From Terriglobia bacterium (GTDB taxonomy: Bacteria; Acidobacteriota; Terriglobia; 20CM-2-55-15), in assembly GCA_965247425.1 (NCBI GenBank), contig OZ252023.1, positions 1,242,917-1,306,916 on the forward strand: a DNA stretch of 64,000 nucleotides, given 5' to 3'. A model generated the notes under the pieces. It ran no database searches and was not told the origin of the DNA. It saw nothing but the letters and a program-made list of their open reading frames with translations. The position numbers were made by a program, and so were the translations under genes. Below, piece by piece: positions 12,527 through 57,641 of the stretch (its first letter is position 1; each line of letters begins with the position of its first letter).

Positions 12527-12634
12527 CAACGCAAAGGCGCGAAATCGCAAAGAACGCAAAGTTGTTTATATGGGATCCCGGAGTCCCGAAAAACGAAATG
12601 TGCGACATTTGCGTCTTTGCGTTTTTGCGTTGAA
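12527..12634. repeat. REP/MITE-like palindromic element, family 3, copy 1 (arms caacgcaaaggcgcgaaatcgcaaagaacgcaaag / tttgcgtctttgcgtttttgcgttgaa)
   Basis: Imperfect inverted arms flanking about 45 bp. The element begins 7 nt after the rsgA stop. Related copies lie at 24469, 57547 and 32740. Confidence 0.6.
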
Positions 12635-12653
12635 CTCCCCCGTCGGGGTACGA

Positions 12654-13352
12654 CTAGCTGGTCTCGGCGGCTGGAAGGCTCAGGCGGCGTATGACGACGA
12701 TAGCCACGATGATGGAGATGACGACTCCCGCAACCAGGGGCCAGACCAGCCATGGGAAAGCCACGAAGAGTTCCACCGAGATGTACGACTGGACATAGGC
12801 TATCGGGGCCATCCCAAGCGCCGTGCCCAGCATCACCGCGGACACGGGAATTGTCGTGATGCCGGCGGCGTATGAAACGATGTCGGACGAAGTGAGAGGA
12901 TTGACCCGCAGGAGAGCGATCATGATGAAACCGCGTCGGCGCAGCAGGTCTTCGTACCTGGCCAGGCTTTCGGGGCTGAAAAAATCCCGGGTCCAGTTCC
13001 GGCCGACGAAGGTTCGCATCAGCAGGCAGGCGATGCCGGCGCCGAGCGTGTTTCCCAGTAGCGTCAACGTCCCGCCCCAGAAGCCGCCGAACAGGACGCC
13101 CCCGGGCAGATAGAAGATCGTTCCCGGGATTGGAGCCACGACCACCTCGACAATGACGACCACGAGGTACAAGAGCGGACCCACTGGCCCCCAGCTTCTG
13201 AAGAAGGTCTGAAGCGCCGCCAGCTTGGATTCGGCCTCCATGTCGAAGTCCAGCATCAAGCTGACGATACCGCCGTTCCAGTACGACCAGGCCAACACCG
13301 CAGCGACGAGCGCGAGGCCCGCAACACCTAAAAGTCCAACCTTTCGCTGCAT
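12654..13352 (-). CDS. DedA / TVP38-TMEM64 family membrane protein
   Basis: Multi-transmembrane protein with a glycine-rich re-entrant motif (GTIFYLPGGVLFGGFWG) typical of the DedA/SNARE-associated family. Confidence 0.6.
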   Translation of the reverse strand: MQRKVGLLGVAGLALVAAVLAWSYWNGGIVSLMLDFDMEAESKLAALQTFFRSWGPVGPLLYLVVVIVEVVVAPIPGTIFYLPGGVLFGGFWGGTLTLLGNTLGAGIACLLMRTFVGRNWTRDFFSPESLARYEDLLRRRGFIMIALLRVNPLTSSDIVSYAAGITTIPVSAVMLGTALGMAPIAYVQSYISVELFVAFPWLVWPLVAGVVISIIVAIVVIRRLSLPAAETS

Positions 13353-13429
13353 GGCCCTCCTTCGAAGCTGATCAGGAACGATCTCAGAAAATCACACTGC
13401 GATCTTCCGAGCAAAGCTTTTGAGTCCGA

Positions 13430-14170
13430 TTACGAATAAACGCGTTGTAAACGTCGGCTCGTGTGATCGACGACGACAACTATCGCAAAGATGGCCAGAA
13501 TCAACGTCGCTACACGCTGGTACTGAAACAGGTTGGTCGTCGTGTAGATCATCTGCCCAAGGCCACCCGCTCCGACAACGCCCACGATCGTCGCGCTTCG
13601 TATGTTGGTCTCCCAACGGTACAGCGCAAACGAAATGCATTGGGCCCACGCCTGGGGAACCACCGCGTAGAGCGAGACGGCACTCGGGGATCCGCCCGCC
13701 GATGCGACCGACTCGACAATCCGGGCATCGACGTTTTCGAACGTGTCGCCGAACAGTTTCCCAAGTACACCGGAGGTATGAAATGCGAGGGCAAGAGCCC
13801 CGGCGGCCGGGCCCAATCCGGCCACGAAAACGAAGATCAGGGCCCAGAGCAGATCCGGGACAGCCCGTAGCAGGACAAACAGGCCGCGTGAGAACCAGCC
13901 GAGGCCCCGACGTGCCGTTGACAGCCAGGCGATCGAGAACGAGAACAGAAAGGCGAGTGCCGTGCCCGCGATCGATATCGCCAGGGTCTGCAGGGCGGCC
14001 ACTCCGGTTTGTCTGAGAAATTCCGGATCGACGGCAGGCGGAACGAACTCACCGAGTAGAGCGAGGATGCTGGATCGAGTCCAGCCGGCATCGGGCCAGG
14101 TCAGCCAGAACGATGCGAGGACACCGGCGCCACCGAGCGCGATCAGAGCCGTCCGTTTCGCCAAGTTCAC
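13430..14170 (-). CDS. phnE: Phosphonate ABC transporter permease PhnE
   Basis: PhnE-type conserved region (...SVASAGGSP...LYAVVPQAWAQCISFALYRWETNIRSATIVGVVGAGGLGQ). Confidence 0.8.
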   Translation of the reverse strand: MNLAKRTALIALGGAGVLASFWLTWPDAGWTRSSILALLGEFVPPAVDPEFLRQTGVAALQTLAISIAGTALAFLFSFSIAWLSTARRGLGWFSRGLFVLLRAVPDLLWALIFVFVAGLGPAAGALALAFHTSGVLGKLFGDTFENVDARIVESVASAGGSPSAVSLYAVVPQAWAQCISFALYRWETNIRSATIVGVVGAGGLGQMIYTTTNLFQYQRVATLILAIFAIVVVVDHTSRRLQRVYS

Positions 14171-15006: not shown

Positions 15007-15817
15007 TCAACCCGTTTGATGCGCCGATCTTTCCTTCGCGTACAAGTCGTCGAGCATGGCGTTGGTAACCCGTGATGGCGCGGTGTCGAAGAGTATCTGT
15101 CCATCCCGGAGGCCGATGAGGCGTCCGAAGTTGTGTCGGGCGAACTCGACCTGGTGGAGGTTTACGATCAGCGTCGCTCCTTTTCTCTCGGCCCAGGCGT
15201 TCAACGTGTCGATGGTCATTTGGGACAGGCCCGGATCTAACGACGCGATGGGTTCGTCCGCCAGCATGATCTCCGGGTCCTGGAACATCGCACGGGCGAT
15301 CGCAACCCTTTGCTGCTCCCCGCCGCTGACTTGTTCGGTCCGTTCGTTGAGCTTTTCCTCGATGCGGAACTTCCGGAGGATCATGGAGATCTCGTTTGTG
15401 TCGGGCACCACGAACTTCAAGACGGACCATAGGGGCGAGAGCTGCCCGAGCCTTCCTGCCTGGACGTTTCGGGCGATGCTCAGGCTGGGGACCAGATTGA
15501 AATGCTGGTACACGATCCCGATTCGGGCACGCATCTGTCTGTCTCGCCGGCGGCTGTTCCCCCAGCGGTGTCCATCGATTTCGACCCGGCCGGAATCCGG
15601 ATCGAGGGTTCCGTTGATGAGCCGCAGCAGGGTTGTCTTGCCCGCGCCGCTTGGACCGATCAGGGCGACACGTTCGCCGGTGCGGACCTCCAGGGTCAGG
15701 TCGCGGATAGGAACGAGGGCGCCGAAAGAGCGCGTGACGGTCTGGAGTCGGATATTGATGGGACCTGCCTTTGGACCGAAACCCGTGTTCTTGTAAGCCG
15801 GCTGCTCTGGCTGGCAT
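15007..15817 (-). CDS. phnC: Phosphonate ABC transporter ATP-binding protein PhnC; the N-terminus lacks a canonical in-frame start (probable 1-nt indel)
   Basis: Walker A (VALIGPSGAGKTTLL, nt 15630-15675) and the signature and Walker B motifs (VSGGEQQRVAIARAM, ILADEP) are in one frame back to a stop at 15864, with no ATG, GTG or TTG in that frame upstream of Walker A. An ATG at 15817 lies in the adjacent frame. Confidence 0.65.
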
Positions 15818-16163: not shown

Positions 16164-17780
16164 ATGTCGTCGAGAACCAAGTTGATCGCGCTAGCCGTTG
16201 TCGCCGTCATGTTGCCGACAATGATTCTCTCGGTGATTCAGTATCGCTCGTTGCTCCAGCTTCAGAGCACGACGAAGCTGGCGGCTCAGGAGAGTCTGAG
16301 ACAAGTGTTGTACGGCCTGTCGGGCCGGGCCGAAGAAGAGTTGACCTGGATCGCCGAGCAAGCCCTCGGAACCCTCGACACCGAGTCTCTGTCCAGGGAA
16401 AACATTCTGGAACTCGAGAGGCACTTCGAGGCGGTTCGGACGGCGAATCCGGCAATCGACAGGCTCTTCCTTTCCTTCGTGTGTGGCTGCGAGAGTTTCG
16501 GTGTGGTCACCTCCGCGAACGGAAGCCGAAGGTTCGAGAACGAGAGAGCGGCCAGGAGGCTCGAAGTGGTCCAGGTTCAGGACCTGTTCGAAAGTGCCCG
16601 CACGGACGCCTATCCGGACGGACGGGTGGGCAGAGACTTTCTGTTCGCACACCTGTCCGATTGCAGAGGGCCATCCTGCCGTCAGGGCGACGATTTTGAA
16701 ACATATGTGTTCTACCCTTTGATCAATCAGGGTGGGGAAGAACTGGGCTTCGCGGCCATGTCGCTGAAAACGAAATACATCACCGATGAGCTGTTCGCCC
16801 GCGTTCTACCGGCAAAGCTTGATCGCGACCTGGCCATCGGGATCTTCGATGAGAACCATTCCGAACTCTATGCCACCCAGAAGGCACGTCAGACGTGGGA
16901 AGTCACCGTGCCCCTGGCACCCGTGTTTCCCCGGTGGAGCCTGGGAGCAGGCTTCAGGAACACGACGATCGAGGGCGCGGCGCAGCAGCAGTTCCAGGAG
17001 AGCCTGGCCCTGTCCTTGTTCGTTCTGTCATTGCTGGTTCTGGGCATTATCCTGACGCTCCGTGCGACAGCTCGAGAGATCCGGCTTGCCGAAGCCAAGT
17101 CCACTTTTGTGTCGAATGTCTCCCACGAACTGAAAACTCCCCTGGCCCTGATCCGGCTGTTTGCAGAGACGCTTGAACTGGGGCGCGTGCGGTCGTCGGA
17201 CAAGGCGCATGAATACTATCGAATCATCAGCAACGAAAGCAGACGACTGACGCAGTTGATCAACAATATCCTGGACTTTTCACGAATCGAAGCCGGTCGC
17301 AAAGAGTATCAGTTTGAAACGACCGATGTCGCCCAGGTCGTGCGGGAAGTCGTCGAGACGTATCAGTATCCCCTTGAAAACGCCGGTTTCAAAATAGTCA
17401 CCGTAATTGAATCCGACCTCCCGCCCGTCAAGATCGACCGGGATGCGATGTCGCAAGCCGTCCTCAACCTGGTGAACAATGCCGTCAAGTACTCCGCTGA
17501 GATCAAACGGATCGACATCCGCGTACGTTCAGCCGAGGGCCACATCGCCGTTGAGGTGGCCGACCAGGGCATCGGCATTCAAACCTCCGAACAGGAGAAG
17601 ATTTTCGAAAAATTTTACCGGATCAGTACCGGTCTGGTGCATGACCGGAAGGGGAGCGGTCTGGGCCTGGCCCTGGTCGACCATATCGTCAAGGCCCATC
17701 GTGGCGAGATTGTCGTAGAGAGCAAGCTGGGCAAGGGGAGCCGTTTTACCGTCCTGATTCCGCTGGCCGCTGACGGCTAA
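16164..17780 (+). CDS. Sensor histidine kinase (two transmembrane helices, a periplasmic sensor domain, HisKA and HATPase_c)
   Basis: H-box SNVSHELKTPLA. N, G1 and G2 boxes (NAVKYS, DQGIGI, GSGLGLALV). Confidence 0.85.
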   Translation: MSSRTKLIALAVVAVMLPTMILSVIQYRSLLQLQSTTKLAAQESLRQVLYGLSGRAEEELTWIAEQALGTLDTESLSRENILELERHFEAVRTANPAIDRLFLSFVCGCESFGVVTSANGSRRFENERAARRLEVVQVQDLFESARTDAYPDGRVGRDFLFAHLSDCRGPSCRQGDDFETYVFYPLINQGGEELGFAAMSLKTKYITDELFARVLPAKLDRDLAIGIFDENHSELYATQKARQTWEVTVPLAPVFPRWSLGAGFRNTTIEGAAQQQFQESLALSLFVLSLLVLGIILTLRATAREIRLAEAKSTFVSNVSHELKTPLALIRLFAETLELGRVRSSDKAHEYYRIISNESRRLTQLINNILDFSRIEAGRKEYQFETTDVAQVVREVVETYQYPLENAGFKIVTVIESDLPPVKIDRDAMSQAVLNLVNNAVKYSAEIKRIDIRVRSAEGHIAVEVADQGIGIQTSEQEKIFEKFYRISTGLVHDRKGSGLGLALVDHIVKAHRGEIVVESKLGKGSRFTVLIPLAADG

Positions 17781-18051
17781 GCAGCCTGTGGCGGGACTCT
17801 TGAGGGTCGCGCGCAGGGGGATTCGGGTTTCAGGCGCGAAGAGAGGAGCGGAGCGATGCTTTGTCATCGTGACCGACGAACGACAAAGCCTGAGACCCGA
17901 AGACCCCTGCGCCCGACGGGTTACGACGGCATCGGGTCATCTGCGGCGTTGCCACTCATCATCGATGGGTAGCATCGACGTCGTCGTGGCGCCGGATATC
18001 TGGCCCGATGACGCTCGTAACGCGACCCTCGAGAGTTCCGCCACAGGCTGC
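17781..18051. repeat. MITE-like element family 1, copy A (271 bp, roughly 31-bp terminal inverted repeats gcagcc(t/c)gtgg...gggtcgcg)
   Basis: Starts immediately after the histidine-kinase stop codon and ends 25 nt before the response-regulator start. About 85% identical to the copies at 49206-49520 and 51740-52011. Confidence 0.8.
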
Positions 18052-18075
18052 TAATAAATGGAGGAAGAGAAGCCA

Positions 18076-18771: not shown

Positions 18772-19410
18772 ATGTCCAACTTGAACCGCACCCTTGTTGC
18801 GACGATGTTGCTGGTCGGTCTATCACTTGTTGTCATCGGGCAGAGTGCGAGAGATCGGAACCGCGACCGCTGGCAGCGTCCTGACGAGGTCATGGACGAG
18901 TTGGGTCTCGAATCGGGCAGTGCTGTTGCCGACATCGGTGCCGGTCGCGGCTATTTTACTTACAAGTTTGCGGAGCGGGTCGGCCCGGCGGGCCGGGTGT
19001 ACGCCGTCGACATTCAGCAGGAACGGCTCGATCAGATCCGTCGTGGGTTGTCCCAACGGGGTTTTCGGAACGTGGAACTGATTCACGGCGAGCCGGACGA
19101 CCCCGGTCTGGCTCCAGACTCCGTGGAAGCCATTTTGATCGTCAACGCTTATCACGAGATGCGCGATTTTGATGAGATGCTGCAGGCGATGCACCAGGCC
19201 CTGAAACCCGGAGGCGTGCTCGGGATCATTGACGCGGAGGCGACCGAAGGACGACAACGCAGCCGATATCAGCGCGATCACGAGATTCCCGAATCACTCA
19301 TCAAGGAAGATGCCGCACGGAACGGCTTCGACTTTCTACGGAAAGGTAAAGGCTTCGTTTCAAGCGGTGACGACTGGTATTTTCTGATCTTCGAGGCACT
19401 CTCCCCTTGA
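18772..19410 (+). CDS. Class I SAM-dependent methyltransferase with an N-terminal signal or anchor sequence
   Basis: Motif I VADIGAGRGYFT. ATG 18772 with SD aggtg. Hydrophobic N-terminus LVATMLLVGLSLVVIG. Confidence 0.7.
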   Translation: MSNLNRTLVATMLLVGLSLVVIGQSARDRNRDRWQRPDEVMDELGLESGSAVADIGAGRGYFTYKFAERVGPAGRVYAVDIQQERLDQIRRGLSQRGFRNVELIHGEPDDPGLAPDSVEAILIVNAYHEMRDFDEMLQAMHQALKPGGVLGIIDAEATEGRQRSRYQRDHEIPESLIKEDAARNGFDFLRKGKGFVSSGDDWYFLIFEALSP

Positions 19411-19602
19411 CCGGTTTCGCTCCGCCAATCCCACAAATGAACACGAGCATCCGCTCGCTGGTCGCCCCCTGAACTCATAAGGCCCAACACAGCAATAATT
19501 TACGTCCTGTTGGGAATTGGTCCGAGACTTGCGCCTCTAAGCTAGGAGTCAGCGCTGCAGACAAGTATGACTTCCTGGCCATCCAAAAGGGGACTGAAGA
19601 AC

Positions 19603-22020
19603 ATGATCGATTTGCTCCAGGACATCCGATACAGCCTTCGCGTACTCGCCGCCAGGCCCGGTTTCACCCTGGTCGCGGTCCTGACTCTCGCACTGGGAAT
19701 AGGCGCGAACACTGCGATTTTCAGCGTGATCAACACGGTCCTGCTTCAACCGTTGCCCTTCTCCGAGCCCGACCGCTTGACCCTCATGTGGACCATGACC
19801 GAGGAAGATCCGGAGTCGGCGGTATCCTGGCTGGACTTCGTTGATTGGAAAGATCAGAGCGAGGCGTACGAGGCCATGGCGGTGTACCGCCGCGAGAATC
19901 CACCCTGACAGGTGTCGGAGTCGCCGAAAGGCTGCTCGGAGCCAAGGTGTCGGCTGGCTTCTTCGGGCTCCTTGGCCAGTCGATCGAGCTCGGGCGACCC
20001 TTCACGGCCGGAGAAGACGAGGATGGTGCCGAGAGGGTCACGGTGATCAGCCACAGTGTCTGGCAGACCCGTTTCGGCGGAGCCGCCGACGTCATTGGCC
20101 GTTCGATCGGGCTGAACGGGGAGCCGACTACAGTGGTGGGCGTCTTGCCGGTGGGCTTTCGTTTCCCCGCGGACCTGGGTGACACGGAGATCTGGACGAC
20201 AATGGCCGGGGATTCGTTCAAAACGGAACGTGGAACCCGGACCCTCCGAGCCGTGGGCCGATTGAAGGCCGACGTCTCGATCGAACAGGCTCAGGCCGAG
20301 ATGGATGAGATTGCGGGGCGACTGGAGGAGGTTTACGAAGGAAAGGTCGGACGGGGCATTTATGTTGTGGGTTTGCATGACCAGTTGGTGAGCGACTCCC
20401 GGCCCGCGTTGTTGATCCTGTTTGCGGCCGTGGGAGCCGTCCTTCTGATCGCATGCGCCAACCTGGCCAACTTGCTTCTGGCGAGAGGCGCGGACCGGCA
20501 ACGCGAATTCTCGGTTCGGGCGGCACTTGGCGCGGGTCGCTGGAGAATTGCCCGCCAGTTGCTCACCGAGAGTACGGCGATCGGCCTGATGGGAGGAGGG
20601 TTGGCTCTCCTGTTCGCACTCTGGGGCCTGGACGGGCTACAGGCCATGATTCCCGAGGAACTCGTCGCGGTTGGGAACCTCCAACTCGATCGAACCGTCC
20701 TGGGTTTCGCTCTTGGCCTGTCCCTGGCGACGGGACTGATCTTTGGTTTGTTGCCTGCGCTGGCCGCTGCGAATCCCGATCTGATTCAAGGACTGAAGGA
20801 AGGAATTCGCGGGACGGATGGACGCTCCCGTACTCGTTTGCGCAGTGTCCTGGTGGTTGCCGAAGTCAGCATGGCGGCTGTCCTTCTGGTCGGCGCGGGC
20901 TTGCTCCTGCGTAGCTTCTGGGTTCTGACATCGGTGGAACCCGGCTTTGATCCGAACAATGCGCTGACCTTCCAGATGTCCATGCCCTTTGCCCTCGACA
21001 CCATCAATGACGAGCGAGCGGGCTTTTACGACGAGGTTTTGGCCACCATCGGGGAGATTTCAGGCGTGGAGTCGGCCGCGGCCATCACGATCCTTCCAAT
21101 GGAAGGCGGCGAAATCGGCGCCGGTCTGGAAATCGTCGGCCGGCCGGTTCCGGCCGGTGATCGTCCATCGGTCCGATACAATTCGGTCACACCCGGCTAC
21201 TTCGGAACGATGCGAATACCTCTGGTACGGGTACGTGACTTCGAAGGGAGCGACTCCCGCGGCCGACCCGGTGTCGCGGTGATCAACCGTGCCCTGGCCG
21301 ATCGATTCTGGCCCGACGGGGATCCGATTGGTGAGACTCTGGATCCGGCGATTTCCTTCGACCTCGAGGGCGAACCGGAAGTATTCGAAGTGGTGGGCAT
21401 CGTCGAGAACGTCCACGAAAGGGACCTGGCTTCGGAAGCTCGGCCGCAGATGTATTTTTCATACCGGCAGCACACCTTCCCGTTCATGAGCTTTGTCGTT
21501 CGGACCCAGACGGACGCGGCGTCGTTGATCGGTCCAATCCGGGACGCCGTGGGAACGGTGGACATGGACCAACCGATTTTCGACATCCGGACGATGGACG
21601 AATACCTGGCCCGGACGATGACTTCGCGCCGCTATCCGATGATCCTGCTTGGCATGTTCGCAGGCCTCGCGCTGCTGCTGGCGCTGGTCGGTATTTACGG
21701 GGTGATCTCTTACTCGGTCGGGCAGAAGACGCATGAGATCGGGATTCGCATGGCGTTGGGTGCGGCCCGGCGCGACATCCTGACGCTGGTTCTCGCCGAA
21801 GGCCTGCGCCTGGCGCTTGCAGGAGTCGGCATCGGCGTCGTTTTGGCGCTGGGACTCACCCGGTTCCTGTCCAGCCTGCTGTTTGGCGTCGGCGCAACGG
21901 ATCCGGTGGCGTTCACCGGCGTGCCGGTCATCCTGGCGGTCGTGGCTCTGATCGCGTGTCTGGTCCCGGCGATTCGGGCCGTTGGCGTCGAGCCGATGGT
22001 TTCTCTCAGAAACGAAATAG
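19603..22020 (+). CDS. ADOP-family (acidobacterial duplicated orphan permease, MacB/FtsX-like) permease, unit A; frameshifted near the 5' end
   Basis: N-terminal [41 protein letters not shown]. Frame shifts at about nt 19890 (..YRRENPP* then ..[12 protein letters not shown]); restoring one C in a cc run gives ENPTLTG. The C-terminus ...PMVSLRNE is typical; an extra A at about 22019 removes the natural TAG. Confidence 0.75.
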
Positions 22021-22041
22021 GGATCAATCAAGGAGCAGCCG

Positions 22042-24443
22042 GTGGGTTTCATACAGGACATCGATACGGTCTCCGCGTTCTGGCTGCCCGTCAGGCTTTT
22101 ACGCTGGTGGTGGCGCTGACGCTCGGTCTTGGCATCGGGGCCAACACCGCGATCTTCAGTCTGGTCAATGGGCTCTGGCTGCAACCGCTCGAGTATGAAG
22201 ATCCGGACGAATTGGTTCACCTGTGGAAGATTCGCACCGAAGGCGGCCTGGAAAGTACGACTCGATTTTCCGAGCGTGACTTCTATGAATGGCGTAGCCG
22301 GAACCAGTCGTTCGAAGACCTCGGCGTCTACGATTTCACGAGCGTGAACCTGACCGGCCTGGACGAACCCGAGAGGATCCGGGCCGCGCGGGTCTCAGTC
22401 GGTTTCCTTCGCGCACTGGGCGTCAGGCCGGCCATCGGCCGGCTGTTTCTTCAGGAAGAGGAAATGCCCACCTCAAATCGAGTCGTGATCTTGTCTGACG
22501 CGTTCTGGCAGAGTCGATTCGGATCGGACGAGAGCGTTCTAGGCCAGGAAATTACTTTAAGTCAAGCCCCTCACACCGTAATCGGTGTTCTATCGGCCAA
22601 TTTCGACTTCGCCGGTCAGGATGTGGGCCTCTGGCTTCCGATCCTGATGGATCCAGCAGCCCTCGGAGTCGGCCAGCGTTTGCGTGCCGTTGGACGGCTC
22701 AAGGACGGCGTGTCGATCCAGGAGGCCGAGGCCGACATGCAAACGCTCGCCGGCCCTATTGCGGAGCTGTTCCCTGAGACGAATACCGACTGGACCATCA
22801 TGCTCGTGCCGCTCTACGACGAGATCGTGCGCGAGGCTCGGGCCCCGTCGTTGATGCTGCTCGGGGCTGTCGGTTTCGTCTTGTTGATCGCCTGCGTGAA
22901 CGTCGCCAACCTGATGCTGGCGCGGGGGGCGACCCGGCGGCAGGAGATCGCGGTCCGTGCCGCTCTGGGCGCAGGACGTGGACGGCTGATCCGACAGGTG
23001 TTGACCGAGAGCAGCCTGATCGGCCTGCTCGGTGGCGCCGTGGGTTTCATCTGGGCCTTGTGGGCCGTCGACTTCATGGTCGCCGCTCTCCCGGCCGGGA
23101 CACCGAGACTCGACGAAGTCCGAATTGATTTCACGGTCTTCATGTTCACTCTTGGACTGTCTCTGGCGACGAGCCTCTTCTTTGGCATGGTACCGGCGCT
23201 GCAGTCTTCGCGAACAGGGCTGACTGATTCTCTCAAGAACGGGCAGTCGCGGATGGTGAGCCCGGACAAGCATCGCTTCCTGCGCGTTCTGATCGTGGCC
23301 GAGGTTGCCCTGGCCCTGGTCCTGCTCGTCGGCGCCGGCTTGATGACTCGCAGCCTGATTACCCTACTCCGGGTCGATCCCGGATTCGACGTCGAGAATA
23401 CGATGGCCATGGAGATCTCCCTGCCGCAAGCCTCCTATCCCGATGGGGCGTCCTGGAGACAGTTCTTTGGGCAATTGCAGGAACGAGTCGAGAATATTGC
23501 GGGGGTGTCATCGGCAGGCCTGGTCCAGTTTATTCCCCTTGGGTCGAGCTGGAGCACTGCGTCCTTTGTCATCGAAGGACGTCCCGCGCCTGTAATGAAC
23601 GACAGGCCTTCGGCGATCATCAACAGAGTCAGCTCTGGATACTTCGACACGTTGCAGGTCCCGCTTCTTCGCGGCCGACTCTTCGACGCGCGCGACAACG
23701 AGGACGCCGAGGCCGTGATGATCATCAGCAACAACCTCGCCCAGCGTTTCTGGCCTGATCAGGACCCCATCGGAGAAAGGATCGAATTTGGGGGCACGGG
23801 AATGCCGATGACGGTGATTGGCGTTGTGGGCGACGTGCATGCCCGGGGAATCGACAGAGATTCGCCGATGGTCACTTATGATCATTTGCGTCAGTTGCCT
23901 TTTCCCAGGATTGTTCTTACCGCTCGCTCGAACATGGACTCTGCCGGGCTGGCTTCGGTCATGCGTCGCGAAGTCCTGGCACTCGATCCGGATCAATCTG
24001 TCTTCAACGTTCGGACGATGGGAGACCTGCGCGAGCAAGACTTGATGGGCGCGCGACTGATCGTCAACCTGGTTGCGGGCTTTGCCGTGCTGGCGCTGGT
24101 TCTGGCCGTGGTCGGCTTCTATGGCGTCCTGTCTTATATCAACGCCCAACGTTTCCGCGAAGTCGGTGTCCGCGTGGCCCTTGGAGCGCACCGTCGCGAC
24201 ATACTCCGGTTGCTGATCGGCGAGGGACTGCGGTTGACGTCGATCGGCGTCGGTATCGGGTTGGTCGGTGCTTTCGGCCTCGGCCGACTTCTGGTCAGCC
24301 TGCTGTTTGGAGTCAGTCCGACCGACCTGGTCACCTTCATTGGCCTTCCGATTCTGATGATCACCGTCGCATTCCTGGCCAGCTACCTCGCGGCCCGCCG
24401 AGCCACACGATTGGACCCCATGGTCGTCCTCCGAGCCGACTGA
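22042..24443 (+). CDS. ADOP-family permease, unit B (tandem paralog); apparent in-frame fusion to unit A is probably an artefact
   Basis: SD AAGGAG then GTG 22042 reads VGFIQDI(R)YGLRVLAARQAFTLVVALTL only if one C is restored in atc(c)gatac at about 22068. As given, the frame continues from unit A, giving the 1532-aa ORF in the track. C-terminus ...DPMVVLRAD*. Confidence 0.7.
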
Positions 24444-24468
24444 TTGGCGATTCCAGGTAGGGAGTCGT

Positions 24469-24638
24469 CAACGCAAGGACGCAAAGAACGCGAAGTGTGA
24501 TTCTCCTACCTTGCTACGTGGCCTGCGTTTTCGCCGCATTGAAACGACAACCTGCGCATGGCAGGAAGGCACAGGCCAATCGGACATCTCCAAAGACAAA
24601 AGACTCTGGCCCTCTGCGTCTTTGCGCCTTTGCGTTGA
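24469..24638. repeat. REP/MITE-like palindromic element, family 3, copy 2
   Basis: Arms caacgcaaggacgcaaagaacgcgaag ... ctctgcgtctttgcgcctttgcgttgaa flank about 115 bp. The element begins 26 nt after the unit-B stop. Confidence 0.6.
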
Positions 24639-24654
24639 AAAAAATGTGTCAGTT

Positions 24655-25722: not shown

Positions 25723-25844
25723 AACAACTCCTGGCGAACCATGGAGCGTGTCTCTTCCTCACGGATTGACCGACAAAGGGGATTCGGACTACCATCCGCT
25801 TTCCGATATTCCCCGGAGTTGGACTTCCGAAAGGGACACGCGTC

Positions 25845-32739: not shown

Positions 32740-32815
32740 CTTTGATTTGCGTCTGTCAACGCGAAAGATTTGCAGGATCTGGGCGCGAAATCTGCGTCTT
32801 TTCTTGCCTCGAAAA
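32740..32815. repeat. Degenerate copy of the family-3 palindromic repeat, in a lower-GC intergenic region
   Basis: tttgcgtctgtcaacgcgaaag...gcgcgaaatctgcgtcttttc resembles the arms of the family-3 copies. Confidence 0.4.
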
Positions 32816-47130: not shown

Positions 47131-49206
47131 ATGAGACCGAAGCCCTTCAAAATCCGGTACGGCGAGCGGTTACCCGCGGGTGCAACAGGCGGCGTGGGCG
47201 GCGTCAATTTCTCCGTCTTCAGCCGGCACGCGAGCGCGATGTCCCTGCTACTGTATTCCGACGACCAGTCTCTCGATCCGATTCAGGTGATCGACCTGGA
47301 CCCTGTCGGAAACCGCACACACTTCTTCTGGCATGTCTTTGTCGAAGGAGCAGGTCCCGGCCTGTACTTTACCTGGCGGGCGGGCGGACCCGGTGACACT
47401 CGAGCGACCGGGTTTCGCTTTGACGCCCGACACGAGCTTCTGGATCCATGGGCCAGGGTCGTGAGCGACGCGCTGTGGAATCGGAGTCGAGCAACAGCCG
47501 GTGGAAGTGGCCGGAATGCCATTCGTGGCAAAGTCGACGACGACGCCTATGACTGGGAGGGGGACCTGACGGTGGACCACCCCGTCGAGGACAGCATAAT
47601 CTACGAAGTGCATGTGGGTGGTTTCACCAGCCATCCATCGGCCCGCGTCCGAAACCCGGGAACCTTCCACGCTCTGATCGACAAAATCCCCTACCTCGAA
47701 CGGTTGGGCATCACCGACGTCGAGTTGATGCCCGTCATGGCTTTCGATCGACAGGATGTGCCACCCGCCGCAGCGGCAAAAGGCCTCTCGAACTTCTGGG
47801 GTTACAGCCCCTACGGATTTTTCGCCCTCCATCCCGCCTACTGTTCCACCGCGGACGGTCGAAAGGAATTCCGCGACATGGTGAAAGCGCTGCACCGCGC
47901 CGGCATCGGTGTGATCCTGGACGTGGTGTTCAACCACACGGCTGAAGGGGGGGAGGATGGTCCCTCCATCCATTTCAAAGGCCTCGCCAACGAAACCTTC
48001 TATCACCTCGATTCCGGTGACCGGAGGAAGTATCGTGATTTCACGGGATGCGGCAACACGGTCAATTGCAATCATCCCGTGGTCACGCATTTTCTGTTGT
48101 CGTGTCTGGAATACTGGGTCCGGGAGATGCACGTGGACGGCTTCCGCTTCGATCTGGCGAGTGTGCTGGGACGGGGTGAGGACGGGGAGCCCATGTACCA
48201 TGCGCCGCTGATCTGGGCGATCGAGTTCTCCGAGGTACTATCCCACACCAAGCTGATCGCCGAGGCTTGGGACGCCGGAGGGCTTTACCAGGTCGGGGAC
48301 TTCCCTGGATTTCGCTTCATGGAATGGAATGGGCAATACCGGGACACTGTGCGGCGTGTCGTGCGTGGCGAGAACGGACTGATGAACGAACTCGCCTCCC
48401 GAGTGAGCGGGAGCAGCGATTACCACAAAGAAAAAGGCAAGCTTCCAACCAACAGCATCAACTATGTGACCTGCCATGATGGATTCACGCTCTACGACCT
48501 GGTCAGCTACGACAGGAAGCACAATCAGAACAACGGGGAAGACAATAGGGACGGACCCGCCGAATCCTTCAGTTGGAATTGTGGGCACGAGGGTCCCACC
48601 GACGATCCGCAAATCGAGTCGCTGCGTGGCCGTCAAGCACGGAACCATATGGCCATACTGCTCTTGAGCCTCGGCTTGCCGATGTTGCTGGCTGGCGATG
48701 AGGTTCTGAGGACCCAGCGTGGCAACAACAACTGTTACTGCCAGGATAACGAGTTGAGCTGGTTCGATTGGACGCCCACCGACAGTAACGCCGGCATGCT
48801 TCGCTTCACCCGGGAAATGATCGCCCTGCGCAAGCGGCACGCGTCTTTGCGACGGAGCCGATTCCTTACCGGTCGGCCGACTGCGGGAAGAGCCGGAATG
48901 CCGGACATCGAATGGCACGGAGCTCGACTCGGCGACCCGGAATGGGACAATCCCGAATCACGGATGCTGGCCTACACACTTGCCGGGATAGAACAGGACG
49001 AACCGGACATTTACGTGATGCTCAATATGTCACCCGAAGGCAGAGAGATGGCAATTCCCGCAGTCCCAGGGCGGAAATGGCATCGGGCCGTGGACACGTC
49101 GCGGATCTCGCCTGAGGACATCGTCGTGCCAGCGGAGCAGACGCCGTTAGGCTCGCATGCCTACTACGTCGCCGGGAGAACGGTCGCGGTCCTCGAATCG
49201 CGCTAG
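47131..49206 (+). CDS. glgX: Glycogen debranching enzyme (isoamylase, GH13)
   Basis: ...GVNFSVFSRHA..., GH13 catalytic blocks (GVILDVVFNHT, GFRFDLASVL, EAWD). ATG 47131 was chosen; the track ORF starts at 47062. Confidence 0.85.
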   Translation: MRPKPFKIRYGERLPAGATGGVGGVNFSVFSRHASAMSLLLYSDDQSLDPIQVIDLDPVGNRTHFFWHVFVEGAGPGLYFTWRAGGPGDTRATGFRFDARHELLDPWARVVSDALWNRSRATAGGSGRNAIRGKVDDDAYDWEGDLTVDHPVEDSIIYEVHVGGFTSHPSARVRNPGTFHALIDKIPYLERLGITDVELMPVMAFDRQDVPPAAAAKGLSNFWGYSPYGFFALHPAYCSTADGRKEFRDMVKALHRAGIGVILDVVFNHTAEGGEDGPSIHFKGLANETFYHLDSGDRRKYRDFTGCGNTVNCNHPVVTHFLLSCLEYWVREMHVDGFRFDLASVLGRGEDGEPMYHAPLIWAIEFSEVLSHTKLIAEAWDAGGLYQVGDFPGFRFMEWNGQYRDTVRRVVRGENGLMNELASRVSGSSDYHKEKGKLPTNSINYVTCHDGFTLYDLVSYDRKHNQNNGEDNRDGPAESFSWNCGHEGPTDDPQIESLRGRQARNHMAILLLSLGLPMLLAGDEVLRTQRGNNNCYCQDNELSWFDWTPTDSNAGMLRFTREMIALRKRHASLRRSRFLTGRPTAGRAGMPDIEWHGARLGDPEWDNPESRMLAYTLAGIEQDEPDIYVMLNMSPEGREMAIPAVPGRKWHRAVDTSRISPEDIVVPAEQTPLGSHAYYVAGRTVAVLESR

Positions 49207-49520
49207 CAGCCCGTGGTGGAAGTCTGTAGGGTCGCGCGCAGGGGTATTCGGGGCTCAGGCGCGAAATGAGGAGCGGAACGATGCATAGTCCTCGTGACCG
49301 ACGAATGACAAAGCCTGTGGCCCAAAGACCCCTGCGCCCTTCGGGTTACGACGGCATGGGGCCAGCTGCGGCGTTGGCACTCCTAGATCGATGGCGAGCA
49401 TCGCCGTCTTCGATGGGAACCATCGCCGTCTTCGATGGGCACATCGACGTCGTCGTGCCGCCTTGCATCTAGCCCCATGGCGCTCGTAACGCGACCCTAC
49501 CGACTTCCACCACGGGCTGC
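49206..49520. repeat. MITE-like element family 1, copy B (315 bp; contains an internal roughly 20-bp tandem duplication)
   Basis: Terminal inverted repeats gcagcccgtggtggaagtctgtagggtcgcg / cgcgaccctaccgacttccaccacgggctgc. It begins at the G of the glgX stop codon and ends 13 nt before the glgB stop. Confidence 0.8.
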
Positions 49521-49532
49521 TTGGAGCCTCGA

Positions 49533-51710: not shown

Positions 51711-51739
51711 AACCTCAACATGCTATCAAAATAGGCCTA

Positions 51740-52011
51740 GCAGCCCGTGGTGGAAGTCTGTAGGGTCGCGTTATGAGCGCCATGGGGCTAGATGCCAGGC
51801 GCCACGACGAAGTCGATGCTCTTCATCGATCTAGGAGTGGCAACGCCGCAGCTGGCCCCATGCCGTCGTAACCCGTAGGGCGCAGGGGTCTTCGGGCCAC
51901 AGGCTTTGTCATTCGTCGGTCACTATGACAGAGCATCGTTCCGCTCCTCATTTCGCGCCTGAGACCCGAATACCCCTGCGCGCGACCCTACAGACTTCCA
52001 CCACGGGCTGC
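51740..52011. repeat. MITE-like element family 1, copy C (272 bp), in inverted orientation relative to copy B
   Basis: Reverse complement of copy B with a few substitutions. Together with copy B it flanks glgB. Confidence 0.8.
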
Positions 52012-52014
52012 TGG

Positions 52015-52102
52015 GAGTCTGCGCGGCAGAAGGGATCTACTCCAAATTTGCATGTTAGCAGCAACAGCTGCAAATGTTAGATTCAGACCCGCGCAGGCTC
52101 CT
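52015..52102. repeat. Partial or degenerate copy of MITE-like family 2 (left arm gagtctgcgcggcagaagggatc, right arm cccgcgcaggctcct)
   Basis: Directly adjacent to family-1 copy C, giving nested or juxtaposed elements. Confidence 0.5.
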
Positions 52103-53613: not shown

Positions 53614-53628
53614 TGTCCCCGCCAGAGA

Positions 53629-55188: not shown

Positions 55189-55309
55189 GTAAAATGGAAC
55201 ACTGACGTTCGACTACCGTCGACTATTGGATCATTTGTGATTCTGTTTTGAAAGTCGAGAAAGGAACTTGGTATAAATTCATGAGTCCGATTCACGTCTG
55301 GATCCATCG

Positions 55310-57487
55310 TTGGAGGACATGGTAGAAACTCGAGCCCAGGAACATCTCATCACGTCCACGGGTCAAAAGCTCTGGTCGTTGGCTCGTAATCTCTGGTGGA
55401 GCTGGGACGACGGTGCGACCAGCCTGTTCCGGGACCTCGATCCAGAACGATGGCGCGAAGTCGGACAGAATCCGATTAAGCTCTTGTCTCGAATCCCCTC
55501 GAGGGGGCTGGAGAGCCGGGCGAGCGAGTTGGTCCTCCACAGCCGGATCAACGACACCTACCGCCGTTTCCAGGAGTATCTCAAAGAGAGGGAGACCTGG
55601 GGGACGACCCACGCCGGTGTGCTGGGGCGCCAGCCTGTGGCCTACTTTGCCTCGGAATTCGGACTTCACGAGTCGATCCCGATCTATTCAGGCGGCTTGG
55701 GTGTTCTGGCCGGAGACCACATCAAGAGCGCGTCGGATCTCGACGTCCCCCTGATCGGGATCGGGCTGTTCTATAGCCATGGATACTTCCGGCAGCGACT
55801 CGACACCTCGGGATTGCAGCAGGAGGAATACATCAGGCTCGAACCATCCCAATTGCCCCTAGAACCCGTCCTGGGCCGGAACCTGGAACGGCTGATCGTC
55901 TCGATCGACACCCGAACCGGCGTCATCCATGCGAAGGTCTGGCGACTCGCGGTCGGCCGTCGCCTTCTCCTGCTCCTGGATTCCGATGTTGAAGGCAACG
56001 CCCCCGAGGACCGGGAGCTGACAGCCCGACTCTACGGTGGCGACCGCCGGGTCCGGATCCGGCAAGAACTCCTGCTTGGCGTCGGCGGGGTTCGGGCATT
56101 GAGTGCGATGGGAATCTCGCCGGGCGCATACCACCTGAACGAAGGTCACAGTGCGTTTGCTGTTTTCGATGCGATTCGTGAACGCATGATCGAGGACGGC
56201 CACGATTTGGCCGGCGCGATACGGCGAGTGAGCCGGACCGTCGTTTTCACCACCCACACGTCGGTACCCGCGGGACATGATCGGTTCAGCCCGGAGCTGG
56301 TGGAGGAACACCTTGGGCCCATGCGCGATGCGCTCGGTCTTTCTCGGAGAGACTTCCTGGCGTTCGGGCGTGTCGATCCGAGTGACGACCATGAGGAATT
56401 CTGTATGACCGTACTCGCCCTGAAGCTGTCCCGCAGGGCCAACGCTGTCTCGTCCCTGCACGGCGAAGTTTCACGAGCGATGTGGACTCCGTTGTGGCCC
56501 GGCCGGTCCGAGGATGAGATACCAATCGGGCATATCACCAACGGCGTTCACGGGCCGTCCTGGTTGGCGCCACAGATGGTCCGGCTTTACGGACGCCACC
56601 TGGACGGGGAACAGAATTGGATGCAGCAGCGTGGCGAAGCGAAAACCTGGAGAAATATCGAGAACATCGACGACGGGGAACTGTGGGAAACGCACCTCGC
56701 TCTGAAGTCCCGGCTTCTCGAGTTCGCCCGCCAGCGCTCGATGCGGCAGGCAGAGCGGAGGGGCGCATCGACCGGGGAATTAGAGCGGCTGTCCCGGGTT
56801 TTGAGCCCGGATGCATTGACGATCGGCTTCGCGCGTCGATTCGCGACGTACAAGAGGGCCGAACTCATTCTGCGCCACATGGATCGGTTCGTCGAACTCG
56901 TGAACGATTCCCGGCGCCCGGTCCAATTCATTTTCGCGGGAAAGGCCCATCCATTGGACGAGCCTGGCAAGAGAGTTCTTCAGCGAATCGCCGAACTGAC
57001 CCGTGATTCCAGACTGGCCGACCGCATCGTCTTCATCGAGGACTACGACATCAACGTCGGGCGGTTCCTGGTTCAGGGAGTCGATGTCTGGCTCAACACA
57101 CCGCGCAGGCCGCTGGAAGCTTCAGGAACGAGCGGTCAGAAAGTAGTCTTGAATGGCGGCCTGAACCTGTCCGTGCTCGATGGCTGGTGGGTGGAAGCCT
57201 ATGACGGTTCCAACGGATTCGCTATCGGGCCCGACCGCGCACACGTCGATCCGGAACTGCACGACAGGCGCGACAGTGAAGACCTGTATCGGGTTTTGAA
57301 CGAGGAAGTGATCCCGTTGTATTACCAGCGCAACGCCGACGGTTTGCCTCTGGGATGGATCCAGCGCATGAAGCGATCGATTCGTACCCTGGGATGGCGC
57401 TTTAACGCCAACCGGATGGTCATGGATTACACGACATACTGTTATGTGCCAGCCGCCGGTGGGAGATCGAGCAACATGTCGCGGTGA
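55310..57487 (+). CDS. glgP: Alpha-glucan (glycogen/maltodextrin) phosphorylase, GT35
   Basis: 725 aa with a GT35 DUF3417-type N-terminus and blocks such as EGHSAFAVFD (all spelled EGHSA here). Confidence 0.85.
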   Translation: MEDMVETRAQEHLITSTGQKLWSLARNLWWSWDDGATSLFRDLDPERWREVGQNPIKLLSRIPSRGLESRASELVLHSRINDTYRRFQEYLKERETWGTTHAGVLGRQPVAYFASEFGLHESIPIYSGGLGVLAGDHIKSASDLDVPLIGIGLFYSHGYFRQRLDTSGLQQEEYIRLEPSQLPLEPVLGRNLERLIVSIDTRTGVIHAKVWRLAVGRRLLLLLDSDVEGNAPEDRELTARLYGGDRRVRIRQELLLGVGGVRALSAMGISPGAYHLNEGHSAFAVFDAIRERMIEDGHDLAGAIRRVSRTVVFTTHTSVPAGHDRFSPELVEEHLGPMRDALGLSRRDFLAFGRVDPSDDHEEFCMTVLALKLSRRANAVSSLHGEVSRAMWTPLWPGRSEDEIPIGHITNGVHGPSWLAPQMVRLYGRHLDGEQNWMQQRGEAKTWRNIENIDDGELWETHLALKSRLLEFARQRSMRQAERRGASTGELERLSRVLSPDALTIGFARRFATYKRAELILRHMDRFVELVNDSRRPVQFIFAGKAHPLDEPGKRVLQRIAELTRDSRLADRIVFIEDYDINVGRFLVQGVDVWLNTPRRPLEASGTSGQKVVLNGGLNLSVLDGWWVEAYDGSNGFAIGPDRAHVDPELHDRRDSEDLYRVLNEEVIPLYYQRNADGLPLGWIQRMKRSIRTLGWRFNANRMVMDYTTYCYVPAAGGRSSNMSR

Positions 57488-57546
57488 CGAGTGACGAAGT
57501 CGACCGAAGGTTAGCGGTGAGTTATTCAGGAGCGGGCCCCAAGAAC

Positions 57547-57641
57547 TCGACGCAGAGACGCAGATCGGAGGGAGATTGTCGGAGACGATTAGCCGGGAAC
57601 AAGAAAATCAGATCTCTGCGTCTCTGCGCCTTTGCGTCGAA
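57547..57641. repeat. REP/MITE-like palindromic element, family 3 variant (arms tcgacgcagagacgcagatc / gatctctgcgtctctgcgcctttgcgtcgaa)
   Basis: Located between the glgP stop and the pckA stop. The right arm is nearly identical to the right arms of copies 1 and 2 of family 3. Confidence 0.55.

What the first reader, a model, noticed from the sequence alone, without database searches (positions are those of the whole stretch)
12527..57641. Family of short palindromic (REP/MITE-like) elements parked immediately after stop codons
Elements at 12527-12634 (after rsgA), 24469-24638 (after ADOP unit B, immediately followed by a 5'-truncated ADOP gene), 57547-57641 (between glgP and pckA) and a degenerate copy at 32740-32815 share GC-rich arms of the form CAACGCAAAGG.CGCAAAGAACGC.AAG / CT.TGCGTCTTTGCG.CTTTGCGTTGAA. 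Copy 2 sits at the truncation point of the third ADOP gene, suggesting an insertion-associated deletion.
Basis: seen in the sequence. Interest (0 to 1): 0.5.

Follow-up and report, generated by a model that had tools for sequence, protein, structure and literature searches.

The report
Empty copies of a nuclease-gene bracket
The short palindromes after rsgA, the ADOP genes and glgP are real, and they are gene-less copies of an inverted-repeat "bracket" that in many bacterial phyla encloses one small predicted nuclease gene, an apparently selfish element I could not find described in the literature searched.

Summary
Three of the four claimed copies are real: 12526-12633, 24468-24638 and 57547-57640. 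The motif gives 4 hits against 0 in shuffles, and the hairpins are stable. The "degenerate" copy at 32740-32815 is not supported.

Each arm is T-Y-R-A-C-G-C followed by 3-4 tandem 8-mers (A-R-A-G-R-C-G-C). The interiors are unrelated to each other.

The arms are not specific to this genome. An exact 24-nt pattern, expected about 0.5 times by chance, hit at least 116 loci across many phyla. In 65 of 75 unrelated metagenomic loci the same arms flank a roughly 126-aa GxxExxY protein (PF13366). This is a PD-(D/E)XK nuclease with a Cas4/RecB-like fold and an intact D...ExK motif.

The window copies are therefore empty, non-autonomous versions of that cassette. Copy 3 is missing from the orthologous spacer of a 97% relative, yet it recurs at 92% identity at an unrelated site in another relative. 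Copy 1 is old and has decayed in an 88% relative.

The elements are not REPs: they have no GTAG/CGTC tag and no RAYT. They are not classical MITEs either, because they have no target-site duplication. How they spread is inferred, not shown. The junction between copy 2 and the truncated ADOP gene is real and old, but nothing shows that insertion caused the truncation.

The parts
12526..12633 (.). Copy 1. A 108-bp hairpin element between rsgA (stop at 12520) and a convergent VTT/DedA gene (stop at 12654). Left arm 12526-12561, right arm 12606-12633.
   Evidence: 50-nt arms, 70% complementary; + strand -52.5 kcal/mol, z -7.35. Present in the 97% relative L200 at about 6235-6343. Orthologous but decayed in the 88% relative L201.
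24468..24638 (.). Copy 2. A 171-bp element, 24 nt after the stop of ADOP unit B (24443) and directly before a 5'-truncated ADOP gene. Left arm 24468-24495, right arm 24612-24638.
   Evidence: - strand -77.6 kcal/mol, z -4.5. A homologous junction is in L201 at 15186-15330. The whole block 19396-25725 is absent from the 97% relative L200.
57547..57640 (.). Copy 3, hairpin core (94 bp), between convergent glgP (stop 57487) and pckA (stop 57717). Left arm 57547-57566 has one 8-mer fewer; right arm 57614-57640.
   Evidence: z about -3 on both strands.
57532..57677 (.). Copy 3, dispersed unit. This is the stretch shared at 92-93% identity, interior included, with a non-orthologous site in a related genome (L062 749-896). 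It is missing from the orthologous spacer of a 97% relative.
   Evidence: Against L197 the window-specific segment is 57512-57667. The unit shared with L062 is 57532-57668 and 57532-57677. One boundary coincides.
32740..32815 (.). Claimed degenerate copy. Doubtful: it has partial arm-like strings only.
   Evidence: sequence; no fold above shuffles; not found at 3 mismatches or fewer; matches only its orthologue in L200.

Best explanation
The three clear elements are empty, non-autonomous members of a very widespread family of palindromic 'bracket' cassettes.

A bracket is a pair of inverted arms. Each arm starts at its outer end with T-Y-R-A-C-G-C and continues with 3-4 tandem 8-mers (A-R-A-G-R-C-G-C).

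In full-length members, about 440-550 bp long and found in many phyla, the bracket encloses one small gene for a GxxExxY protein (PF13366 / TIGR04256). This is a minimal PD-(D/E)XK nuclease. The inner end of the upstream arm often supplies its ribosome-binding site. In the short members, 60-300 bp, the bracket encloses unrelated filler.

Shown:
- the shared arm motif
- its tight association with GxxExxY genes
- cross-phylum distribution
- preference for spacers at gene 3' ends
- stable hairpin potential
- one presence/absence polymorphism, plus a paralogous copy of the same unit elsewhere
- decay of an old copy
- absence of target-site duplications

Inferred:
- The elements are selfish DNA that persists where insertion does no harm.
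- Because they leave no target duplication, they spread by a recombination- or nuclease-dependent copying route, homing-like and with the GxxExxY nuclease acting in trans on the 8-mer arrays or on an extruded hairpin. They can also hitch-hike on other mobile elements. DDE cut-and-paste looks unlikely.
- When transcribed as part of a host 3' UTR or operon, the arms form a long stem. By analogy with 23S rRNA intervening sequences, that stem could be cut by RNase III or could stabilise the 3' end.
For: Arm motif and chance.

These include Acidobacteriota, Sorangium/Myxococcota, Chlamydiae, Verrucomicrobiota, Planctomycetota, Chloroflexota, Gamma- and Betaproteobacteria and Prevotella.

Arm profile from 204 arms.

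Cargo:
- L037 5733-6266 holds an ORF matching TIGR04256 at E 1e-40.
- 65 of 75 independent metagenomic GxxExxY genes have an arm within 220 nt, and 54 have one on both sides. Background is 13 arms in 90 kb.
- 47 of 61 ORFs bracketed on both sides are GxxExxY. Most of the rest are antisense shadows of those genes.
- An SD-like string precedes 41 of 75 cargo genes.

Nuclease:
- AlphaFold2 model with pLDDT 95.
- Foldseek: Cas4, lambda exonuclease, AdnAB.
- D68 is invariant and E78 and K80 are conserved in at least 90% of sequences.

Multi-copy behaviour: at least 7982 protein clusters, almost all on contigs of 0.5-3 kb.

Location: of 35 short elements, 16 lie between convergent genes, 13 between tandem genes and 6 between divergent genes. 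The median distance to a stop codon is 50 nt.

Dispersal in this lineage: copy 3 is absent from the orthologous glgP/pckA spacer of L197, whose flanks are 95-97% identical. The same unit occurs at 92-93% identity at a non-orthologous site in L062.

No TSD.

Passenger case: the bracket plus GxxExxY sits inside an active IS5-type element seen in nine different contexts.

Architectural analogue: the Coxiella IVS has a 28-bp terminal-repeat stem, an ORF in the loop and is excised by RNase III (PMC4990558).
Against: No GxxExxY gene was found in the 174 kb held from this lineage, so a trans-acting partner in the source genome is unproven.

The three window copies have unrelated interiors. Recent amplification from one master copy would give similar interiors.

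Only 4 of 116 arm-selected loci carry the gene.

Pairing between the two arms of one element is only slightly better than between arms of different elements (17.2 against 15.5 of 24 positions). Mismatches are A/G transitions in both directions (87 against 73). There is no significant sense-strand G.U excess (166 against 142), and the better-folding strand differs between copies 1 and 2. Selection on an RNA stem is therefore not demonstrated.

Copy 1 has been vertically inherited since before the 88% relative split off, so at least some copies are old residents rather than active movers.

No clean empty site was recovered. The L197 spacer holds 91 nt of different sequence where the window has its 156-nt segment.

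No activity of GxxExxY on the arms has ever been tested, to my knowledge.
Confidence: 0.6

Rival explanations
1. Host-serving hairpins. On this view the elements are 3'-end RNA structures (terminators, mRNA stabilisers or RNase III sites) kept by host selection. They are not mobile, and their similarity comes from function.
For: They sit right after stop codons and preferentially between convergent genes. The folds are stable. Copy 1 is conserved in the 97% relative and its site has been occupied since before the 88% relative split off.
Against: No T-tract follows the stem on either strand, and no canonical terminator is called on the arms. A host-function model does not explain a 24-nt motif shared across phyla, nor its linkage to one nuclease gene family. 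Copy 1 decays in L201 at about the rate expected for unconstrained spacer DNA (my estimate). Copy 3 is simply absent in a 97% relative. There is no consistent folding strand and no wobble bias.
Confidence: 0.15
2. Classical MITEs. On this view the elements are deletion derivatives of a DDE-transposase insertion sequence and are moved by that transposase.
For: They have long terminal inverted repeats, are small and have no ORF. In one set the same arms lie inside an active IS5-type element next to its DDE transposase. DUF772-type transposase genes exist in this lineage (L197).
Against: No TSD at any boundary offset in 99 elements. In the IS5-type case the arms lie about 40 nt inside the true IS ends (CTAGCAGCC...), and the window copies have no such ends next to them. 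Interiors are unrelated. The recurrent cargo is a nuclease, not a transposase.
Confidence: 0.1
3. REP/REPIN elements mobilised by a RAYT (IS200/IS605-like Y1 transposase).
For: The elements are extragenic palindromes, lie after genes and are probably in high copy. REP dimers can fold into one large stem-loop (PMC3733652).
Against: Single arms are tandem 8-mers, not palindromes. There is no unpaired GTAG/CGTC tag, and stems exceed 25 bp against 5-13 bp for REPs. No Y1 transposase was found in 174 kb of lineage DNA. The bracket's cargo gene is PD-(D/E)XK.
Confidence: 0.04
4. attC-like recombination sites of integron-type gene cassettes.
For: They are imperfect inverted repeats of 60-170 bp placed after ORFs. 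Many termini read RTTYAAC...GTTRAAY, which fits the attC core consensus RYYYAAC/GTTRRRY as I recall it. Ten of 75 loci show hairpin-gene-hairpin arrays.
Against: In the window the elements follow housekeeping genes at scattered sites, not in an array next to intI/attI. The commonest layout puts the gene inside the hairpin, not before it. attC sites are not built of tandem 8-mers and are not conserved in sequence across phyla (established knowledge).
Confidence: 0.03

Closest known systems
23S rRNA intervening sequences (IVS) carrying a small ORF, e.g. Coxiella burnetii and Leptospira
   Same: A selfish element of about 430-530 nt bounded by terminal inverted repeats that form a stem of about 25-30 bp, with one small ORF in the loop. 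Its distribution is sporadic and consistent with horizontal transfer, followed by vertical retention and decay of the ORF (PMC4990558, compared).
   Different: An IVS sits inside 23S rRNA helices and its ORF is a four-helix-bundle S23p protein. Here the sites are intergenic spacers and operons, the cargo is a PD-(D/E)XK nuclease, and the arms are a conserved 8-mer array. RNase III cleavage is demonstrated for IVS and only inferred here.
MITEs (miniature inverted-repeat transposable elements)
   Same: Small, non-coding, bounded by long inverted repeats, dispersed in intergenic DNA, far outnumbering the gene-bearing relatives, and polymorphic between close relatives.
   Different: No target-site duplication. 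Interiors are not conserved between copies. The gene-bearing relative encodes a nuclease with no known transposase activity. The arms are conserved across phyla rather than being family- or genome-specific.
REP/REPIN-RAYT systems
   Same: Extragenic palindromes at gene 3' ends. The logic of one protein with many non-coding copies is similar.
   Different: No GTAG/CGTC tag, no short self-palindromic unit, no Y1 transposase.
Free-standing homing-endonuclease genes
   Same: A single small nuclease gene acts as the only protein of a selfish unit. It spreads without a target-site duplication, tolerates residence inside operons, and loses the gene by decay.
   Different: No specific target site or intron/intein context was identified. 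The conserved palindromic bracket has no counterpart in known homing endonuclease genes. The activity is untested.

Membership tests
REP / REPIN (RAYT-mobilised) | The unit is a short (20-40 bp) imperfect palindrome with a 5-13 bp stem and a 2-20 nt loop (PMC3733652) | tested here: not met
   Each arm is a run of tandem 8-mers with no self-complementarity. The hairpin needs two arms 40-130 nt apart and has a stem of 25 bp or more.
REP / REPIN (RAYT-mobilised) | An unpaired GTAG or CGTC tetranucleotide tag at one end | tested here: not met
   The outer terminus is T-Y-R-A-C-G-C and is part of the stem. CGTC occurs only inside the repeated units.
REP / REPIN (RAYT-mobilised) | An associated Y1 (IS200/IS605-like) RAYT gene flanked by the repeats | tested here: inconclusive
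   None in 174 kb of the window plus relatives, but that is only about 3% of a genome. Where the bracket holds a gene, it is PF13366.
MITE | Terminal inverted repeats of at least 10-15 bp, size 50-800 bp, no transposase ORF (PMC11602168) | tested here: met
   Arms of 20-36 nt, lengths of 94-171 bp, no ORF.
MITE | Target-site duplication of 2-10 bp | tested here: not met
   No excess of direct repeats at offsets -4 to +8 and k = 2-8 in 99 elements, compared with shuffled pairings. None at the three window copies.
MITE | An autonomous partner with the same ends that encodes a transposase | tested here: inconclusive
   The partner with the same arms encodes a PD-(D/E)XK nuclease. In the one case with a DDE transposase, the arms lie inside the IS ends.
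GxxExxY (PF13366) bracket cassette (family delineated here) | Inverted arms with a TYRACGC terminus plus at least 2-3 in-register ARAGRCGC units | tested here: met
   All three clear window copies. The profile from 204 arms is.
GxxExxY (PF13366) bracket cassette (family delineated here) | A GxxExxY gene between the arms | tested here: not met
   No GxxExxY coding sequence or remnant in the window elements or anywhere in the window. They are therefore filed as empty derivatives, not as full members.
Integron attC site | Core sites R'' RYYYAAC and R' GTTRRRY at the two ends (definition from my own knowledge) | tested here: inconclusive
   Copy 1's right end GTTGAAC fits. The left ends CCTCAAC and CGTCAAC do not start with a purine, and copy 3 has GTCGAAA. 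Many relatives read ATTTAAC...GTTAAAT.
Integron attC site | Location in a cassette array next to intI/attI | tested here: not met
   The copies are isolated, after rsgA, an ADOP gene and glgP.
23S rRNA intervening sequence | Insertion within a 23S rRNA helix and excision by RNase III | tested here: not met
   Rfam finds no rRNA or any other family in the window. The sites are protein-gene spacers. RNase III cleavage cannot be tested here.
Intrinsic terminator | A G+C-rich stem followed directly by a U-tract | tested here: not met
   The right arms are followed by ACTCCC, AAAAAAA and AAAATCC. The reverse strands also lack T-runs. The scan calls no terminator on the arms, but it only covers loops of 3-8 nt.

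The most novel reading that the evidence does not exclude
The TYRACGC-(ARAGRCGC)n bracket together with its GxxExxY nuclease is an undescribed, cross-phylum class of autonomous selfish element: a palindrome-bracketed nuclease cassette, IVS-like in build and homing-like in spread. The nuclease would recognise the 8-mer arrays, or the hairpin or cruciform they form, and drive copying without a target duplication. The window's hairpins would be its miniature, trans-dependent derivatives.
Probability: 0.3. Interest if true: 0.8.

Novelty: new variant of a known kind. Interest (0 to 1): 0.6.

Why it matters
PF13366/GxxExxY is one of the most abundant small bacterial protein families with no known function.

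Showing that its genes almost always sit inside one conserved palindromic bracket gives the family a concrete hypothesis that can be tested: a nuclease that services its own inverted-repeat cassette. The same bracket also occurs empty at gene 3' ends across phyla.

The result also explains a class of long hairpins and assembly breaks seen in Acidobacteriota, the Planctomycetota-Verrucomicrobiota-Chlamydiota group, Myxococcota and others. It warns annotators about spurious ORFs read through the arms (peptides such as TQRRKGAK or LRLCVFAPLR). And it offers a non-rRNA counterpart to the long-puzzling 23S intervening sequences.

For this window alone the practical consequence is modest. The elements mark old and recent rearrangement points, namely the ADOP junction and the glgP/pckA spacer.

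Tried and rejected
- Rfam at gathering thresholds on the whole window gave no family, and there are no tRNAs.
- Literature searches for twelve arm strings returned no paper. 'GxxExxY', PF13366 and TIGR04256 are mentioned only in passing in five papers. One search failed on syntax.
- The sense-strand wobble test for RNA pairing gave 166 against 142, not significant.
- The comparison of own-arm with other-arm identity was significant by permutation but small. It can be explained by lineage-specific 8-mer preferences, so I do not use it as evidence for pairing selection.
- The TSD search was negative.
- The search for GxxExxY coding remnants inside 79 short elements gave none. The single hit was a mis-paired gene-bearing locus.
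- PDB search by sequence for GxxExxY gave only one chance hit.
- The P0343 look-up returned the same genomic context in all samples, so it says nothing about mobility.
- Long-contig GxxExxY loci (L226-L229) had no extra short elements nearby.
- I first took L062 for the orthologue of copy 3. tblastx showed that its flanking genes are unrelated.
- Viral contigs gave only 23 hits, so phages are not an obvious main vector.
- I could not test whether the four-helix-bundle IVS protein family uses the same arms. I had no seed sequence, and none appeared among the bracketed ORFs.

Full report
OBSERVATION

Each has an outer terminus TCAACGC or TCGACGC. This is followed by tandem 8-mers of the form RCGCARAG on the left, and by their complement on the right. 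The interiors are 50, 116 and 47 nt long and are unrelated to each other.

The arm pattern with up to 3 mismatches occurs 4 times in the window and never in 100 dinucleotide shuffles. An unbiased inverted-repeat search recovers copies 1 and 2.

Pfam confirms the gene context:
- rsgA at 11444-12520, with a convergent VTT/DedA gene
- two ADOP-type MacB_PCD/FtsX units read as one 1532-aa ORF at 19845-24443
- a half-length ADOP ORF after copy 2
- glgP and pckA, convergent

The left ends lie 5, 24 and 59 nt after stop codons.

As RNA, copy 1 folds at -52.5 kcal/mol (z -7.4) on the + strand but only z -2.1 on the - strand. Copy 2 shows the opposite (z -1.9 on +, -4.5 on -). Copy 3 is about -3 on both strands.

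The 'degenerate copy' at 32740-32815 folds no better than shuffles. It matches nothing except its own orthologue. I do not count it.

THE ARMS ARE NOT GENOME-SPECIFIC

I scanned one genome for each of 185,579 species with TCRACGCARRRRCGCARAGRCGCA. My estimate of the chance expectation is about 0.5 hits.

The loci come from Acidobacteriota, Sorangium and Minicystis, Chlamydiae, Verrucomicrobiota, Planctomycetota, Chloroflexota, Thioalkalivibrio, Thiohalobacter, Chitinilyticum, Trichlorobacter, Prevotella and others.

In these loci the arms pair up as + then - at distances of 59-641 bp. The distribution has two modes, about 60-130 bp and about 440-550 bp.

A profile of 204 arms gives T-Y-R-A-C-G-C followed by A-R-A-G-R-C-G-C repeated three or four times, with a T favoured just outside.

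No paper in the searchable library contains any of twelve arm strings. Rfam has no matching family.

WHAT THE LONG VERSIONS CARRY

L037 5733-6266 is a 534-bp bracket around an intact 126-aa ORF. That ORF matches TIGR04256, 'GxxExxY protein', at E 1e-40. L014, L042 and L058 carry the same family.

I then turned the question round and fetched GxxExxY genes from metagenomes: 555 of 600 candidates were confirmed and 80 were kept.
- Reading the flanks shows the same arms around almost all of them, most often with the terminus TTAACGC.
- A fuzzy three-unit detector finds an arm within 220 nt of 65 of 75 genes, and on both sides of 54. Background is 13 arms in 90 kb of more distant DNA, and shuffled windows give 0.
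- Most of the ten 'negatives' carry variant 8-mers such as ACAAAG, ACACAGAG or CACAGATC.
- The commonest layout is arm(+)-gene-arm(-), in 25 loci. Next is hairpin-gene-hairpin, in 10.
- Of 61 ORFs bracketed on both sides, 47 are GxxExxY, and most of the rest are their antisense shadows.
- An SD-like string lies 4-20 nt before 41 of 75 cargo genes, often made by the last arm unit, GCAAGGAG.

Cassettes sit inside operons. One site between pgk and tpiA is occupied in six loci. Others lie between arginase genes (L226) or among type I R-M genes.

THE CARGO PROTEIN

The family search returned at least 7982 clusters, all PF13366, almost all on contigs of 0.5-3 kb. Multi-copy repeats that break assemblies would look like this, although the collection's median contig is also short.

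The AlphaFold2 model is confident (pLDDT 95).
- Foldseek agrees, with Cas4, lambda exonuclease and AdnAB.
- D68 is invariant, and E78 and K80 are conserved in at least 90% of sequences. Together they form the canonical D...ExK motif.
- Sequence search finds no solved structure.
- The literature gives the function as unknown, with multiple transfers (PMC3424549).

BEHAVIOUR IN THIS LINEAGE

L062 comes from the Terriglobia MAG OZ253536.1. It matches window 57532-57677 at 92%, interior included, but its flanking genes are unrelated. It is therefore a paralogous copy of the same unit.

L197 has a PckA 97% identical and flanks 95-97% identical, and it keeps the pckA/glgP arrangement. It lacks the element: window 57512-57667 is replaced by 91 nt of unrelated sequence. 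One boundary of this indel coincides with the end of the unit shared with L062.

Copy 1 is present in the 97% relative L200. In the 88% relative L201 it is orthologous but decayed to about 60-65% identity, and the arms are no longer detectable. It is an old resident.

Copy 2 gives three results:
- In L200 the whole segment 19396-25725 (ADOP A and B, copy 2 and the truncated ADOP) is replaced by one copy of an unrelated 165-bp MITE.
- In L201 the first ADOP gene is followed by an internally deleted ADOP remnant. Then comes a 99-bp element, TTCAACGCGGAGACGCGGAG...CTCCGCGTTGAAAAAG. After it comes the same GTGACCGGAAACGC.ACC block that follows copy 2 in the window.
- The element/fragment junction therefore predates the split of these lineages. 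The truncation itself is real, because homology begins at about nt 24712, about residue 430 of a unit. Nothing shows that insertion caused it.

FAMILY-WIDE PROPERTIES RELEVANT TO MECHANISM

Short elements in the arm-selected loci lie between convergent genes 16 times, tandem genes 13 times and divergent genes 6 times. The median distance to a stop codon is 50 nt. 'Parked after stop codons' is therefore a family trait.

No target-site duplication exists at any plausible boundary.

The two arms of one element match each other only slightly better than arms of different elements (17.2 against 15.5 of 24; 0 of 2000 permutations reach the observed value). Mismatches are A/G transitions in both directions (87 against 73). 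The sense strand of gene-bearing cassettes shows no significant G.U excess (166 against 142). What is conserved is therefore chiefly a sequence motif in inverted orientation, not a covarying helix.

Short interiors hold no remnant of the gene.

In one set (L240-L248) the bracket encloses both a DDE transposase and GxxExxY. It lies about 40 nt inside the inverted repeats (CTAGCAGCC...) of an IS5-type element found in nine different contexts. The bracket can therefore travel as a passenger.

INTERPRETATION

The best-supported reading is that the window's elements are empty, non-autonomous members of the GxxExxY bracket-cassette family. This is selfish DNA that persists in harmless 3' spacers.

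The association, the distribution, the polymorphism, the decay and the lack of a TSD are shown.

How the element spreads is inferred: a nuclease- or recombination-dependent, homing-like route, or hitch-hiking. Any RNA-level role of the stem, such as an RNase III site or 3' stabiliser by analogy with the Coxiella IVS (PMC4990558), is also inferred.

Points against this reading:
- no GxxExxY gene in the 174 kb sampled from this lineage
- unrelated interiors among the three copies
- weak evidence for pairing selection
- no clean empty site

COMPARISON WITH KNOWN FAMILIES

REP/RAYT is rejected on three defining features.

Classical MITE status fails on the TSD and on the transposase partner.

attC and intrinsic-terminator readings fail on context and on the U-tract.

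The closest analogue in build is the ORF-bearing 23S rRNA intervening sequence. The closest in logic is a free-standing homing-endonuclease gene with miniature derivatives.

VERDICT

As features of this window, the elements are a modest finding. The link they reveal is the interesting part: a conserved cross-phylum bracket tied to a very abundant nuclease family of unknown function, which I could not find in the searchable literature.

Interest is 0.6. Novelty: a new variant of a known kind.

Noticed in passing
window 17780-18052, 49205-49521, 51736-52015: A second, much cleaner MITE family of about 270-316 bp, with 32-35-nt inverted repeats that are 94-97% complementary and an inner 25-30-nt inverted repeat. 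Its terminal repeat, CTAGCAGCCCGTGG..., resembles the ends of the IS5-type (DUF772/DDE_Tnp_1) element seen in L240-L248. A DUF772 gene lies in relative L197 at 7620-9065, and another copy of the MITE is in L200 at 3755-4026.
   Followed up: partly
window 45608-45772: A third MITE-like element, 165 bp with 26-nt inverted repeats that are 96% complementary. It is highly polymorphic. Extra copies sit at four sites in the 97% relative L200 where the window has none (L200 6364-6477, 12945-13110, 13650-13816, 20295-20477). There is one more in L197 (9601-9764) and two in L062.
   Followed up: partly
window 9769-10044: Another inverted-repeat element with 32-nt arms, 97% complementary and 212 nt apart. 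Its arms (TCTAGTGGTCCGCGCCAGATATAGCGGTACTA) differ from the other families. At this position the 97% relative L200 instead carries about 1.9 kb that includes a reverse-transcriptase (RVT_1) gene and a copy of the 270-bp MITE.
   Followed up: no
window 19396-25725 and 26274-27661: Both segments are absent from the 97% relative L200. The first holds the whole ADOP block and the second is 1.4 kb. In each case a single copy of the 165-bp MITE stands in their place. This suggests MITE-associated deletion or replacement between very close relatives.
   Followed up: partly
window 19845-24443: Two complete ADOP units (four MacB_PCD and four FtsX domains) are read as one uninterrupted 1532-aa ORF. In the 88% relative L201 the ADOP genes are separate (805-822 aa each). 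This is either a real fusion or the loss of a stop codon.
   Followed up: no
window 57717-59360 (pckA): The closest named homologues of PckA (73-80% identity) are Planctomycetota (Pirellulales). Those of the histidine kinase at 16164-17780 are Acidobacteriota (Blastocatellia). This may reflect transfer of pckA or simply uneven naming of database entries.
   Followed up: no
L113 2378-2694: A bracket element whose interior holds a nested second hairpin, CACCGCAAAGGCGCAGAGG...CTCTGCGTCTCTGCGCCTCTGCGG. That inner hairpin is flanked by arms of a variant type built from ACACGAAG 8-mers (TTCAACACGAAGACACGAAG). Nested insertions and sister arm types therefore exist.
   Followed up: no
L123 665-1464, L125 342-1143, L136 718-1926; L148, L155, L158, L160, L164, L171: Bracket arms also flank half-size hsdS-like genes in type I restriction-modification operons that carry GxxExxY cassettes. 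Separately, one pgk|tpiA intergenic site is occupied by a GxxExxY cassette in six different metagenomic lineages.
   Followed up: partly
L156 1650-2246: A 198-aa ORF with arms on both sides looks by eye like a Uma2/DUF820-type PD-(D/E)XK protein. It may be a second kind of cargo. I did not check it against a family library.
   Followed up: no
L201 14983-15185: An internally deleted ADOP pseudogene. About 26 N-terminal codons (MQDLRYGFRVLAARP...) are joined to the last roughly 15 codons (...RVDPVVVLRVD*). It lies directly upstream of the element that corresponds to window copy 2.
   Followed up: no
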